Assembly: GCA_965153355.1 (NCBI GenBank) | Contig: OZ231126.1 | Span: 48,174,001 to 48,238,000, forward strand | Length of the DNA stretch: 64,000 nt | Source of the DNA: Flaccisagitta enflata | Lineage: Eukaryota | Direction: 5' to 3' | Part shown: positions 284 to 64,000 of the stretch, in pieces | Position numbering within the stretch: the first letter of the stretch is position 1 | Layout of the letters: the number at the start of each line of letters is the position of its first letter | Program-made: the position numbers and the translations under genes | Notes under the pieces: generated by a model | Database searches by the model: none | The model's input: the letters and a program-made list of their open reading frames with translations, nothing else | Told to the model about the DNA's origin: nothing

Positions 284-2328
284 CTACAGCAGAAATTTTC
301 GCATCACGTCGGAAAAATACGAGAGCGCCATCAATAAGCCATCGAACGAAACTAAGAGCTCGAAGATGAATTTGGACGTCGAGTTTGCCGTAAAGAAGAA
401 AATCACCCCGAAAATCCACTGCAGACTCTGAAAGACGATGAGCTTCATCAAAAATTTGACGAGGGCGAAGAATCCTTCTTTGTCCATAGGCTTGTCCCGC
501 AGCTTCACGAATTGAATCAGACTGAATACCAAATTTCCCACGCCGATCGTAACCACGATGGAGGCCGGCAAAGCTATGAAAAACAACCTTCCGCGCTCAC
601 CAGTCAACATGCAATACCCTTCGAGGCCGTAATGCATCGGAGATTCGTGGGAAAACTGCTCGATACACCATAAGATAACAACGGCGCCAAGTGGTCCAAT
701 CCAAACACCGATGGTCAGTAAAACCTCCCTTTGACTCAAGCCTGGTTCCCTGTTTTCAACAGTTAAAGCGGCCATGTTGTGATTTAACTGCCACAGAAGA
801 TGCGCAACTTGTACTCCATACCAGGCGACGTAACAAAAGGAAACGAGTAACGCGTAATGAATCAAAAGCGCAAACGCTTTGCAAACGACAGTGACACGTC
901 TGAAGGCTGTACCACCACAAAGAGCCAAGAAAAACGCGAGTTTACTGACTGCGATCCCCAACTGACATCGCTTGGCTTTGGAAATGACTCCCGTACACGT
1001 TAAATGGACAATCATCGACGAGAAGAAGAAGATGGAAGTGCCACTGCCAGTCAGGGAAATTACCAACACCCCAAAAAGCCGATCGCTATGGTCCTCCATC
1101 CCTCTTTTGACCGAAGCTTCCTCCATGATGGACCATAAAAAGCCGGAGTGACCCAAATTGACTCTGTTTTCTAGAAATCTCCAATCTTGAAAATTTCTCA
1201 TCATATGCATGATTTTATTCATGTTACTGGTCACAAATGGAAGCAAGATCGGGCCACAATGACGACAGAAACATGGAGAGTCTACCGCCTCTACCCTGTC
1301 GTGATGCATGAGCAGCAGAAAATTTGTACGCCTTTGATTCTTATCACGACTTTTATCGTCGTCGTTAAACAAGCATAACTTACCAAGCCTGTTGCGCCCA
1401 TGTAAACCATTCGAGTTGGGGTAAGAAATCGAGTCACCGGAGCAAGTTAATGATTCATTATCCAAAGGGCTAAAATCTAAGGAACCTCCAAGTTTGATGT
1501 CATGAAAAAGTTTGCGACAAGCCAAACCACCTGGGATTTCCAATCGCCAAAAGTGTTCCTCGGTGACATTTTCGAAATTACAAAGAGCGCAGAAAGCATT
1601 TCGGTACGTCAATCCATTGATTTCAACGGGTAAGCGTAACGCTGGATTGCTTTCTTTGCCCAATTTTGGTGACACACACTTGGACTTGATTTTATCATCG
1701 TGAAACCACTTTGAACACGACGTGATCACGTAAAAACCAATACCTATAAATATCTGATTTTGTCTGTAATTGTGTGTCGAAACGCACTTAACTTGGACTT
1801 CATCCGGTACCGTATCGTGGCCACGTCCGACGTCGAAATCCATACAGCAATCTCCAAAACGGACGCATAACTCGTCGCAGTGGCAAAGGGACAAACTTGA
1901 TTGGAAATCGTACAATTTGTCCTCGTCTTTGCCCGCGCAATATTTTGTTGGGAAATCAAGCGGACATGCTTCTTCTTGCTTTTGATCCTGGCTCCAGAAA
2001 TCCCTGATGGCCGATACATGCTCAAATATCTCCAGATGCTCGCCAATCAATCCGCCTATGGCCACCCGCGTGCCTTCGTTCATTTCATGTATGGTCAATT
2101 TTAAACACTTGATTCTCTTTGTTTGCACGGATCTTGTATGAAGCGAATCTGGTGAGGTACATTCTATCAATGCTGAGATAGGCATCCAATCCTCATTGGT
2201 AGAATAGCAATCCAAGTGTTTTCCAAAAAATTGAAACTTGGTTGGGAACAAAAACTTGCGAGTCTCAGTTGGAAACTCGTAAACTTGATCAAAGGTTGTA
2301 TTCTCTAAATCGTCAATGATTAGAGAAC
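284..2328 (-). CDS. Terminal coding exon of an adhesion/Methuselah-like (class B2) GPCR with somatomedin-B-like Cys domain and 7TM
   Basis: 655-aa ORF with SMB-like CHCDELCVRFGDCCMDF, YRNAFCALCN motif, seven hydrophobic helices and class-B-like motifs (CKAFALLIHYALLVSF, YGLEGYC, LQWIFG). The frame stays open upstream of the TTG to an acceptor ttttttttttaaattacag| (AG at 2330-2329), phase 1. Confidence 0.9.
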
Positions 2329-2544
2329 CTGTAATTTAAAAAAAAAACTTATATATCACAGACATCTAATTTTTTGTTGTCGGCAATTTAATACATCACG
2401 TCTAGGTCCATCATAAAGTTCTTCATCAGTCCGTGTACTCCGTCGTCAGTCTAGGTCCATTATCCATAAAGATTTGAGCAACGGCTGGGTCAAACCGACT
2501 ACCATAGCAACATAGTTCCGTACATCAACATGCGCAACAGTTAC

Positions 2545-3995: not shown

Positions 3996-4813
3996 CACTG
4001 TGCTTTTAAACAAGGCCGGATACACGGCTACCGAAGTCGCGTGCGGGTGGGCAGGGGCCATATTTGAGGTCACCAGATCATTTGGGCAGGAGCAGTGAGG
4101 TCAAAGAAATAAAATCATAAAAAAGTAAAGTGTGACGGCCCAACGGCCCAACGGACCAACCGACTGACAGACAAAGCGGGTTGTAGCGTCGCGTGCACGC
4201 GACTAAAAAATTCTCAGTGGAAAGTCATATAACTGTGGGTTTTTCTGCATTTTTGAGCAGTATTGGAATGTAAGAGCATGTAACTAGCAAAAATAAAATC
4301 ATTCCCCGAGCGCTTTTTGAGTAATCTTCAAAATAGAAAAAAAATAAACCTATTTGTAATGCAGATTCTAATGAGTTGTATTAGCTCATTTTTTAATTCC
4401 ATATTGTTATTCTATTCAAAATTTCCTTTCATTTGATAGGTCACACTATATAGTTTTATATAGAAATTCGGTTTTTATATTATGAGCCACCATTATTTTT
4501 TTGTAACGGTGACTCAAAAAATGAAAATTTTAATTCTTTGCAAAAGTATAGAGTGCGACATATCATATGAAAGAAAGAAATGCATATATTAACAATGTAG
4601 AATCAGAAATTTATTCAACGCATCCCAGAAGAATCTGCATTGAATTTGAAATTAGGTCTATTTTTGTCTGATTCTGAAGGTTACTCAAAAAGCGCTCAGG
4701 GAATGATTTTGTTTTTGCTAGTTACATGCTCTTACACCCCAATACTGCTCAAAAATGCAGAAAATCCCACAGTTATATGACGTTTCACTCAGAATTGTTT
4801 TAAAAGCACAGTG
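3996..4813. mobile_element. Non-autonomous CAC...GTG element with long TIRs and 4-bp TSD (Chapaev-like)
   Basis: Ends CACTGTG / CACAGTG, flanked by CCCT on both sides. About 130 bp of inverted arms (4210-4335 vs 4675-4800). Left TIR is interrupted by a HINE. Confidence 0.8.
4008..4208 (+). mobile_element. Helentron-associated (HINE/DINE-1-like) element, family A
   Basis: aaacaaggccggatacacggc hairpin end, subTIR AGTCGCGTGC, GGAC/CCAA repeats, terminal palindrome gtcgcgtgcacgcgact followed by an A run. Confidence 0.75.
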
Positions 4814-23562: not shown

Positions 23563-24157
23563 CACTGTATTTTTACAATATATCCTAGTGAAAAATCATA
23601 TAACAGTTTTTTTCAGCAGTTATGTGTAATATTGGGGTATATTAACATATAGGAGGTAAAAATGAAATTATTCCCCAGCGCTTTTTGAGTAATCTTCAAG
23701 GTAGGAATAAGTTGGATCTCTTTTCAATCCATATTTAACCAAGTTGTATTGACTCATTTTCTGATTCCAAATTGTCAATCCTTACAAAATTTCTTCTCAT
23801 TTGATAGGTTGCACTTAGAGGTTTTGTAAAAAATTAAAATTTATATTTTTTAAGTTGCGGTGGCTTAAGAAATAAAAATTTGAATTCTTTTCAAAAGTAT
23901 AAAGTGTGACCCATCAAATGGGAGCAAATTTTGCAAGAATTAACAGTATGAAATCAGAAAAATATTTGATCTGACTCCATAGAATCTTCAGTGAAAATGG
24001 GTTAGATTTTATCTATTTTGAAGATTCCTCAAAAAGTGCTTGGTCAATGATTTCCTCTTTGCTAGTTATGTGTTAAAACACTTTGATACCACACAAAACT
24101 GCAGAAAAACCCACTGTTATATGATTTTTTACTCAAAGCTGACTTAGAAGCACAGTG
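23563..24157. mobile_element. CAC...GTG element, same family as 3996-4813, nested in 22804-29863
   Basis: Ends CACTGTA / CACAGTG; 4-bp TSD TTCT; shared internal sequence (gcgctttttgagtaatcttcaa, catttgatagg core). Confidence 0.8.
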
Positions 24158-39784: not shown

Positions 39785-39789
39785 CCGCA

Positions 39790-40473
39790 CACAGTGGGCC
39801 TTAATTGGGTATGGATTTTAAAAAATCCTCAAAGGTAGTGATGTATACTAGTAAGTACCTTTTATAGTGGAGGATTGAAGTTGACTGTTAAAAGAAATTT
39901 CCCTTGAAAATTTTTGCAAAAATCACCAAAATGTTTTGAAATTTTCAAATATTTGATATATAACTTTAGGATTTATGTATTTTAAAGTTCTGATTGAAGA
40001 TTCATATTCCTGGTAAACTTTCCAATCATTTGATAGGTCGCACTATATATTTTTATCAATAAATAAAATTTTCATTTTCTGTGCTATTGTTACAAATAAA
40101 GCAACGGTGGCTTAAAATATAAAAATCTTATTTTTTCATGAAAGTTTATAGTGTGACCTATCAAATGATTGAAAATCTCACCAGGACTATGAATCTTGAA
40201 TCAGAATTTAAAATAGATCTATCCTTGAGATCTATATGTAAATATATAAGAAAATTGATACTTAATAGGGGTTTTCACATTTAGATATCGCCTATGTAAT
40301 ATCTCGATGATATTCCCAATGCGAAAACCCCTATTATTGATTTTTGCAAAAACTAGCAAGGGAAATTTTTTTTCAAAGTTAACATTGGTTCTCCATCATA
40401 AATTGTACCTACTTATGCAAGTCACTACCATCAGGGATTTTTTTTAACTCATATCCAGTTAAGGCCCGCTGTG
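39790..40473. mobile_element. CAC...GTG element with RSS-like termini and 4-bp TSD, in intron 1 of the SOSTDC1-like gene
   Basis: CACAGTGGGCCTTAA / TTAAGGCCCGCTGTG; CGCA on both flanks; imperfect TIRs over 100 bp. Contains a ~72-bp nested hairpin MITE at 40264-40335. Confidence 0.85.
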
Positions 40474-40715
40474 CGCAACATCTAAAATATGCGTTTAAAA
40501 TGCGATTCAACTCGATCATCACAGACCAACGGACGCTCAGTGAGGAGTCGTGAGTCCGCGTCTTGGTCTAAAAACGCAAGTTTTTGTGAATTGAAACAAA
40601 AACTGAATAATTGAAACAAAAATTGGCCACCTGCATCCTTGATAAGATCGAGACGTGTTTGTCTCCAAGCTTTAAATTCAATCATCCACCTGATTATTGG
40701 TCATCATCTAATCTA

Positions 40716-63162: not shown

Positions 63163-64000
63163 GTAGAGACTAGAGTCCAGTGTATTTTTTGCTCCAGAGA
63201 CGTGGAGGATTCGACACGCAATCTGTGAGACTCAAATGCTAGTCTCATAGCTCAAATCACACTGTCGAGGCAAATATCCCAGTCTCGAAGCTCAAATCCC
63301 AGCCTCAGATTCAGATCTCATCTGTACGGCTCAAATCCCAGCCTCAATAGGGAAGTTGATGCAAAAATCGCAATAGAACGCCGAGGGGAAGTTAAGCGTT
63401 ACCGACTGACCAACAGACGGCACGCCACGGGGAAAACATCTGCCGGCTGTATCAAATACTCGGTCTTAATGTCCATTCGTTTTGTCAACAGGAAGACTTC
63501 CTCTATCTGTTTCTATGAAAGATAAAAGAAATGCGCTTCAAAATTTGTTAAAAATCAACAAAAGGTAGCTCTACAATCATGTTTTTGCCATGAATCTTTT
63601 CACATTAAAATCATTGAAGTTTCGAGTAAAGATTTAAATTCCTGGTCAAATTTCCAATCGTTTGATAGGCCGCACTATATAGTTCTACTAAAAAAAAAAG
63701 TCGAATTTTCCTTCAATATATGACAACAACATTGCTAATATAACAACCAACAGTGATGTAACAAAAAACTGAACTTTTTTGTTTCTTGATAAAAGCATAT
63801 AGTGCGACCTATCAAATGAACAGAAATTTTGCAAGGAATACGATTCTTTTACAAGAATTAAAGATGGGCGACAGCCATTCGACTTATCTGGCAAAACATA
63901 GAAAAAATTTAAAATTTTGTTAGTAAAAAAAAAATAATTTTGAAGCCATTTTTTCTCTCTTTGCTAGGGAGTGATAGAGTAGACCTTCCTGAAGTCCAAA

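What the first reader, a model, noticed from the sequence alone, without database searches (positions are those of the whole stretch)
39790..40473. Transposon with V(D)J-RSS-like ends (heptamer + 23 bp + nonamer) at both termini, but a 4-bp TSD
Seen: the left end reads CACAGTG (perfect RSS heptamer), then 23 bp, then AAAAAATCC (39820-39828, 7/9 to ACAAAAACC). The right end read inward is CACAGCG + 23 bp + AAAAAATCC. Flanks are CGCA/CGCA. Established: Transib and ProtoRAG have RSS-like TIRs but 5-bp TSDs, whereas Chapaev elements have CAC...GTG ends, 4-bp TSDs and an N-terminal region related to RAG1's. Inference: this is a symmetric 23/23 RSS-like non-autonomous element whose mobiliser may be a Chapaev/RAG-like transposase. 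Because the two ends are copies of one TIR, they are not independent evidence, and an A-rich nonamer match can arise by chance.
Basis: partly seen in the sequence, partly recalled or inferred. Interest (0 to 1): 0.72.

Follow-up and report, generated by a model that had tools for sequence, protein, structure and literature searches.

The report
Miniature transposon with antibody-signal-like ends
This is one of several hundred copies of a small, gene-less jumping DNA element whose two ends resemble the cut signals used to assemble antibody genes; that resemblance is known for a related transposon group, but the 4-base insertion scar is not typical of that group, and the enzyme that moves the element is still unidentified.

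Summary
Observation confirmed. The element is one copy of a ~618-bp fold-back MITE family (537 exact 16-mer ends genome-wide). The TSD is exactly 4 bp at 31 of 43 sites and not GC-rich.

The ends fit the published 38-bp Transib consensus better than the RSS: nonamer 9/9 at positions 30-38. A younger family of 2-12-kb elements keeps heptamer, spacing and nonamer but changes the mid-spacer. All 9 variable end positions lie in the spacer (p about 0.004), so the box is probably functional. However, 14 of 23 spacer positions are invariant too.

Three Chapaev-type transposons read end to end here also make 4-bp TSDs, and sister MITEs sharing this core carry Chapaev ends. This MITE's own ends do not fit those clades, and no Chapaev or RAG1-like probe hit inside the long elements, whose interiors were not read.

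Verdict: CMC/Transib-clade MITE with Transib-like ends and a Chapaev-like footprint; mobiliser unidentified (Chapaev-type ~0.55, Transib-type ~0.27). The scan earlier noted RSS-like ends with a 5-bp TSD in another genome and judged them ordinary Transib.

The parts
39786..39789 (+). Left copy of 4-bp target site duplication (CGCA)
39790..40473 (.). Fold-back MITE, 684 bp here (family mode 618 bp), no ORF of 150 aa or more
39790..39796 (+). Left terminal heptamer CACAGTG
   Evidence: 0.98 conserved over 63 ends
39797..39819 (+). 23-bp 'spacer': conserved proximal block, family-variable positions 10, 16-19, 22, 25, 28, 29, conserved TGRGT
39820..39828 (+). Left A-rich box AAAAAATCC (7/9 to RSS nonamer; family consensus 9/9 to Transib consensus nonamer at end positions 30-38, this copy 8/9 on the left)
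39892..39907 (+). Subterminal motif about 103-118 bp from the end, weakly in register with a motif of Chapaev TIRs of this genome
   Evidence: 0.76 vs rotated-control maximum 0.65; only about 4 bits and matched off-register
40026..40168 (.). Central palindromic core shared with other fold-back MITE families, two of which carry ends of transposase-bearing Chapaev families
40263..40331 (.). 69-bp hairpin insertion found in this copy, absent from the subfamily consensus
   Evidence: (I7)
40435..40443 (-). Right A-rich box AAAAAATCC
40467..40473 (-). Right terminal heptamer CACAGCG (one change from the family CACAGTG)
40474..40477 (+). Right copy of 4-bp target site duplication (CGCA)

Best explanation
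A non-autonomous cut-and-paste MITE of the CAC...GTG (CMC/Transib) clade, moved in trans by a Chapaev-type DDE transposase of a lineage not yet read. Shown: hundreds of copies, fixed 39-bp end, 4-bp TSD without sequence or GC preference, several waves of amplification (3.4, 4.7 and 7.2% from subfamily consensus), and a younger 2-12-kb family with the same end layout. Inferred: the transposase dimer binds each end in two places, a terminal block (positions 1-15, cut at the CAC edge) and a distal box (TGRGT plus A-tract plus TCC, positions 23-39) held at fixed distance, with a tolerant stretch between them; strand transfer is staggered by 4 bp. Inferred, weaker: the long family is the parent lineage or its deletion series; the enzyme is Chapaev-like; the RSS/Transib match is an A-tract box that the local Chapaev L176 group carries 3 bp nearer the end.
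For: 4-bp TSD at 31 of 43 sites, 32% GC against 41% in flanks. CAC...GTG with 3-4-bp TSD is the stated Chapaev hallmark (PMC4079192). All 3 Chapaev-type elements read end to end here have CAC ends, long TIRs and 4-bp TSDs (L165, L167, L189/L176); an exon of the last aligns to the Chapaev-family profile A1 at probability 96.6, E 4.9e-10, and A1 relatives carry RAG1_imp_bd and RING domains. Sister MITEs with the same core have ends 68-83% identical to transposase-linked Chapaev ends and 4-bp TSDs. L176 was the closest of 18 ends to this MITE's end (z 9.7 against doublet shuffles) and has TGAGT starting at the same position 23. Bipartite end: 9 of 9 variable positions fall in the spacer (p 0.004; nonamer alone p 0.03).
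Against: A position-weight matrix from 17 transposase-linked Chapaev ends scores 4 of 6 sister ends at +32 to +60 bits over positions 40-135 (the other two +1 and -34), but this MITE at -25 to -48, no better than off-register; positions 40-95 are at background. None of 24 other CAC ends exceeds 6/9 to the Transib nonamer at position 30 or 5/9 to the RSS nonamer at 23+-1. No listed hit of the Chapaev probes lies inside the 13 long pairs; searches scored only 81 of 109, 150 of 196 and 150 of 193 candidates. The core motif also occurs in a TA-flanked MITE with non-CAC ends (L121), so it is not superfamily-specific. TSD length can vary inside the Transib lineage (bioRxiv 10.64898/2026.08.26.747230).
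Confidence: 0.55

Rival explanations
1. A Transib/RAG1L-lineage element whose strand-transfer stagger has shifted from 5 to 4 bp; the RSS-like end is inherited from Transib, and the shared core was picked up from the local pool of fold-back MITEs.
For: The end equals the published Transib layout (38 bp, heptamer, spacer, AAAAAAATC; PMC1131882): 9/9 in 6 of 6 subfamily-end consensuses and 41 of 63 single ends, against 20 exact matches in 128,000 window positions. Six of 13 long pairs are 3.0-3.9 kb or 2997 bp, near the 3-4 kb of autonomous Transibs. Exact 5-bp TSDs at 2 of 43 sites. The genome holds many RAG1-like transposases (102 matches). Transib relatives with 3-bp and TA TSDs are reported.
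Against: No 5-bp rule and no GC-rich target preference, both Transib/RAG hallmarks. No RAG1-like hit lies in the long pairs. On C1-C3 the only listed exact MITE end within 30 kb of 32 RAG1-like places is a MITE sitting in an intron of such a gene. No MITE-like end was found within about 8 kb of the 4 PF12940 loci.
Confidence: 0.27
2. The mobiliser is another CAC-ended or undescribed CMC/Transib-clade transposase (EnSpm-, Mirage-, Plavaka-like or a new branch), or it is extinct and the long elements are non-coding too.
For: All Chapaev and RAG1-like probes miss the long pairs; their lengths are scattered (2007-11983 bp). The clade as a whole spans 2-5-bp TSDs with CA..TG ends (PMC12730594). The three longer MITE copies that were read (760, 889, 1202 bp) are plain MITEs with extra sequence inserted.
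Against: PF06869 found nothing anywhere (uninformative) and PF20231 nothing in the pairs; 4-bp TSDs in this genome are otherwise tied to Chapaev-type proteins.
Confidence: 0.18
3. On the separate question of the nonamer: the RSS match is a coincidence of an A-tract inside an ordinary 39-bp TIR that is conserved as one block.
For: Single-copy conservation is flat (heptamer 0.98, positions 8-24 0.95, nonamer 0.97); 14 of 23 spacer positions never vary; 19 of 262 interior 9-bp windows are also invariant among six subfamily ends; about 25 CAC-ended families were looked at and one matches, with a per-family chance near 2%.
Against: Variable positions cluster in the spacer (p 0.004); the box is kept exactly in 27 of 27 testable long-family ends; it is bounded by variable positions on both sides (28-29 and 40-45).
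Confidence: 0.35

Closest known systems
Chapaev transposons (CMC clade; Kapitonov and Jurka 2007 as cited in PMC4079192 and PMC4411706)
   Same: CAC...GTG termini, 4-bp TSD; shares its core with MITEs that carry Chapaev ends; same footprint as the 3 complete Chapaev-type elements read in this genome
   Different: Ends do not fit a profile of 17 local Chapaev ends; the Transib-type nonamer at positions 30-38 is absent from all 18 transposase-linked Chapaev ends examined; no Chapaev transposase found between such ends
Transib transposons and their non-autonomous TransibN families (PMC1131882)
   Same: 38-bp end with heptamer, about 22-23-bp spacer and AAAAAAATC nonamer, symmetric RSS23-like ends as in most Transib families
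   Different: 4-bp instead of 5-bp TSD; no GC-rich target preference; arms fold back over about 300 bp; no Transib ORF linked
ProtoRAG / RAGL transposons (PMC7204232, PMC10462144)
   Same: CAC-initiated heptamer followed by a conserved proximal block; RAGL-A also has a nonamer-like box
   Different: RAGL TSDs are 5 bp; their proximal block (TR2) is A-rich, here GC-rich then TTAA; RAGL-A ends are asymmetric, these are symmetric; no RAG1L-RAG2L pair shown
Vertebrate 23RSS
   Same: Perfect heptamer, 23-bp spacing, AA at nonamer positions 5-6
   Different: Spacer mostly conserved, nonamer 7/9, no 12/23 pair, dispersed transposon ends rather than gene-segment signals

Membership tests
MITE (non-autonomous TIR element) | Short, TIRs, TSD, no coding capacity, many copies of uniform length | tested here: met
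   33 of 43 copies 598-620 bp or close, mode 618; 537 exact 16-mer ends, control 0; no ORF of 150 aa or more
Chapaev | 5'-CAC ... GTG-3' termini | tested here: met
   84 of 86 ends begin CAC
Chapaev | 3-4-bp TSD (Chapaev3: TWA) | tested here: met
   exact 4 bp at 31 of 43 sites, no fixed sequence, so not the TWA of Chapaev3
Chapaev | Ends homologous to an autonomous Chapaev | tested here: inconclusive
   closest end L176 z 9.7 and in-register motif, but profile score at background over 40-95 and negative over 40-135
Chapaev | Partner encodes DDE transposase with C2C, LH, H4H motifs and Chapa domain | tested here: inconclusive
   such genes exist in the genome but no probe hit inside the 13 long pairs; interiors not read
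Transib | 38-bp TIR: heptamer, variable spacer, AAAAAAATC nonamer | tested here: met
   9/9 at positions 30-38 in 6 of 6 consensus ends, 41 of 63 single ends
Transib | 5-bp TSD | tested here: not met
   2 of 43 sites
Transib | GC-rich target preference | tested here: not met
   40 of 124 TSD bases G or C (32%) against 41% in flanks
Transib | Partner encodes a Transib/RAG1-core transposase | tested here: inconclusive
   no hit in the long pairs; single-sequence probes can miss distant clades
RAGL / ProtoRAG | 5-bp TSD and A-rich TR2 next to the heptamer | tested here: not met
   4-bp TSD; positions 8-15 read GGSCTTAA (definitions)
RAGL / ProtoRAG | Convergent RAG1L-RAG2L gene pair between the TIRs | not tested
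   no RAG2L search was run; RAG1-like probes did not hit the long pairs
V(D)J RSS | 12/23 asymmetry | tested here: not met
   both ends of MITE and long family have the same spacing
V(D)J RSS | Heptamer and nonamer conserved, spacer sequence free | tested here: inconclusive
   9 of 9 variable positions in the spacer (p 0.004) but 14 of 23 spacer positions invariant
V(D)J RSS | Nonamer bound by a dedicated domain at fixed spacing | not testable with these tools
   needs the transposase and a binding or cleavage assay

The most novel reading that the evidence does not exclude
The young 2-12-kb family encodes an active transposase on a branch between Chapaev and Transib/RAG1 (or a Chapaev proper) that reads a true heptamer / 22-23-bp / nonamer end yet integrates with a 4-bp stagger. 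That would place RSS23-type recognition before the Transib-Chapaev split, or show that it arose twice, and would give a natural enzyme for separating nonamer recognition from target-site geometry.
Probability: 0.15. Interest if true: 0.75.

Novelty: new variant of a known kind. Interest (0 to 1): 0.42.

Why it matters
RSS23-like ends are a published property of Transib, so the resemblance alone is ordinary. What is unusual is the combination: a Transib-consensus end with a Chapaev-type 4-bp, non-GC footprint. I found no report of it in the listings or in the passages read; Repbase Reports are not in the library and no supplements were read. If the long family supplies the enzyme, it bears on when nonamer recognition arose in the lineage leading to RAG1, and the 13 listed loci make that directly checkable. 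If it turns out to be a plain Chapaev or Transib, this is a routine repeat annotation.

Tried and rejected
1. DUF1280 (Chapaev-type) loci as partner: 13 loci read over 20-40 kb; none has this end.
2. PF12940 RAG1-like loci: 4 read over about 18 kb, no such end.
3. Second Chapaev clade: 6 loci read over 8 kb, 3' flanks of 20 and then 12 more regions; ends located in 8 of 20 and 10 of 12, none is this end.
4. 3' flanks of 3 intronless RAG1-like families did not reach their ends.
5. My interim reading that the MITE is a direct derivative of the L176 Chapaev: weakened by the profile test; the sisters pass it, this family does not.
6. My interim note that sister families put the A-tract 5 bp from the heptamer: incomplete; they also have one at positions 29-33.
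7. Test of whether the 5163-bp pair at C2:7387426-7392588 carries the MITE core: the listing stopped on C1, no answer.
8. Metagenome scan for the 24-mer: 0 matches.
9. RNA: no RNA holder listed; in one run (about 6 in 100 of its reads) 659 of 663 laid reads fitted the L189 interior only in part, and the bins over its first and last exons were empty; not used as evidence.
10. Homolog searches: 3 hits, none, 1 hit. PDB: none for P0001; RAG1/RAG1L only at E 0.03-0.09 for profile A1. Atlas: recognition below its threshold, lead only.
11. PF12560, PF06869, PF20231: nothing in the long pairs; PF06869 rang nowhere.

Full report
Observation. The sequence is as described: heptamer 39790-39796, 23 bp, AAAAAATCC 39820-39828; mirror image at the right end with CACAGCG; CGCA on both flanks. 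The element is a fold-back over its whole length (fold z -17.2), so the two ends are one sequence seen twice. This copy is 684 bp because of a 69-bp hairpin insertion at 40263-40331. The window lies in a 794-Mb eukaryotic assembly of 9 contigs.

The family. Exact end matches: 246 for a 24-mer and 537 for a 16-mer, reversed controls 0. On C1, 23 of 54 end loci had both ends exact, which implies roughly 450 copies (inference). Of 60 loci examined, 5 lacked a second end and were dropped; the 55 others collapse to 43 distinct sites. TSD: exact 4 bp at 31, exact 5 bp at 2, exact 3 bp at 1, 3 of 4 bases at 6 more, none of these at 3. TSD bases are 32% GC against 41% in flanks. Three subfamilies lie 3.4, 4.7 and 7.2% from their consensus; a fourth appeared.

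Is the nonamer special? Among single copies it is not: heptamer 0.98, positions 8-24 0.95, 25-30 0.83, nonamer 0.97, 40-55 0.81 over 63 ends. Neutral decay after insertion would give that, so families are the better test. Across six subfamily-end consensuses positions 30-39 are invariant, against 48% of positions 40-100, though 19 of 262 interior 9-bp windows are invariant as well. A pattern that kept the geometry but excluded the main MITE found 99 places against 7 in the control. Of these, 29 are ends of a second, very homogeneous family that forms 13 pairs of 2007-11983 bp; 43 belong to a fourth MITE subfamily; 27 are mutated ends, older relatives or chance. The long family keeps AAAAAAATCC in 27 of 27 testable ends but differs at positions 10, 16-19 and 22. 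All 9 positions that vary among families lie in the spacer (p 0.004; nonamer alone p 0.03; families are related, equal rates assumed). So spacing is fixed and the box is probably bound, but 14 of 23 spacer positions are invariant, unlike an RSS.

The better reference is Transib. PMC1131882 gives the Transib consensus end as 38 bp with heptamer CACAATG and nonamer AAAAAAATC. This family matches that nonamer 9/9 at positions 30-38 in 6 of 6 consensus ends and 41 of 63 single ends; the window has 20 exact matches in 128,000 positions. The same paper gives 5-bp TSDs and GC-rich targets as Transib hallmarks; both fail here.

Search for the mobiliser, Chapaev side. PF06918 (DUF1280; my recollection that it marks Chapaev proteins was the lead) found 15 places. 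Database relatives carry RAG1_imp_bd (2 of 19) and RING domains (4 of 19), the architecture PMC4411706 describes for Chapaev. None of these loci has the MITE's end. A second, intron-containing clade (134 last-exon matches) has C2C, LH and H4H motifs. Three elements were read end to end: 5200, 5347 and 5341 bp, CAC ends, TIRs of 345-1000 bp, all with 4-bp TSDs. Sister fold-back MITEs share this MITE's core (68-80% identity) and have ends 68-83% identical to transposase-linked Chapaev ends. The MITE's own end was nearest to L176 among 18 ends and showed an in-register motif at 103-118. A stricter profile test undercut this: 4 of 6 sister ends scored +32 to +60 bits, this MITE -25 to -48. None of 24 other CAC ends has the nonamer at position 30 above 6/9, although four reach 7-8/9 three bases nearer the end.

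Search for the mobiliser, Transib side. PF12940 gave 4 places; proteins from them gave 14 and 102 matches, many in open frames of 740-790 aa, and P0153 gave 34. No MITE-like end lies near the 4 loci read. On C1-C3, one of 32 RAG1-like places and none of 58 Chapaev places lies within 30 kb of a listed exact end; that one is a MITE in an intron. These lists cover only the first 100 places of each pattern.

The long family. No listed hit or 122 falls inside the 13 pairs (compared by eye). Their interiors and flanks were not read, so their TSD, coding content and relation to the MITE beyond position 39 are unknown. They are the obvious candidates for the parent lineage.

Mechanism. Shown: trans-mobilised, CAC-edged, 4-bp stagger, fixed bipartite end. 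Inferred: DDE cut-and-paste transposition with a terminal contact over positions 1-15 and a distal contact over 23-39. By analogy with RAG1L proteins, which use a heptamer-proximal clamp and a nonamer-binding domain (PMC10462144), both contacts may be used at once. Lineage odds: Chapaev-type 0.55, Transib/RAG1L-type with shifted stagger 0.27, other or extinct 0.18. Odds that the box is functional: about 0.65.

Comparison and novelty. It works like a Chapaev in footprint and looks like a Transib at its ends. It cannot be filed as Transib (two defining features tested, not met) or RAGL; Chapaev membership meets termini and TSD but the protein test is open. TSD length is reported to be labile within Transib (bioRxiv 10.64898/2026.08.26.747230), and the wider clade spans 2-5 bp (PMC12730594), which lowers the surprise. 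Searches for Chapaev with RSS-like ends (6 papers listed) and for Transib with a 4-bp target site (1 paper, on Kolobok) listed no paper on this combination. Score 0.42: new variant of a known kind, with a concrete route to a more interesting result.

What I saw of each paper: passages only, by term search, of PMC1131882, PMC4079192, PMC4411706, PMC8355894, PMC7204232, PMC10462144, PMC12730594, PMC3014272, PMC6004678, 10.64898/2026.08.26.747230 (10) and 10.1101/100735 (124); search listings. No supplements and no Repbase Reports were seen; TIR tables there may bear on novelty. The labels 'Chapa-like motif' for the second clade's N-terminus and 'Tc1-like' for L121 are recalled and come from no call (Pfam found nothing on those exons).

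Noticed in passing
window ~4190-4813, 23563-24157, ~63480-64000: Three more fold-back MITEs of sister families share the central core; 23563-24157 has CACTGT ends and a 4-bp TSD, and the first two have ends of the L176 Chapaev type.
   Followed up: partly
window 284-2335 (-): Intronless 683-aa frame with a somatomedin-B domain and a secretin-family 7TM domain, an adhesion-type GPCR candidate.
   Followed up: no
window 40263-40336: A 64-69-bp hairpin with G4/C4 ends inserted in this copy; a 22-base piece of its loop recurs in another locus, so it may be a mini-MITE.
   Followed up: no
L078, L088-L107 (e.g. G000:C3:39036455-39043189): Chapaev-type (DUF1280) transposase genes with long low-complexity repeats on both sides of the catalytic core, one an unbroken 2245-aa frame; several sit in 13-22-kb units duplicated at 97-99% identity without evident TIRs.
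   Followed up: partly
G000 one search places; L204, L205: Many RAG1-like transposase genes, with open frames of 740-790 aa, plus an intron-containing clade; two families have arrays of 22-28-bp tandem repeats downstream of the gene.
   Followed up: partly
L192, L202 (G000:C3:82.829 Mb): A Chapaev element ends exactly at the centre of a half MITE made of a Chapaev L174-type end plus the shared core; several longer MITE copies likewise carry insertions at the palindrome centre.
   Followed up: partly
L071/L072 (G000:C1:86939618-86940201): A copy of this MITE sits in an intron of a RAG1-like transposase gene.
   Followed up: yes
L002, L007, L009, L011, L019 and L018, L024, L026, L028: Copies with identical flanks on different contigs: the MITE travels inside larger repeats.
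   Followed up: no
G000:C2:7387426-7392588 and C4:37626415-37630195: MITE-type ends 5163 and 3781 bp apart; content not read.
   Followed up: no
G000:C9:12968141, C4:43942407, C5:65036299: Matches of 34-35% identity to only the N-terminal 270 residues of the RAG1L-like protein P0153.
   Followed up: no
L121:5523-6057: A TA-flanked fold-back MITE with non-CAC ends shares part of the core motif.
   Followed up: no
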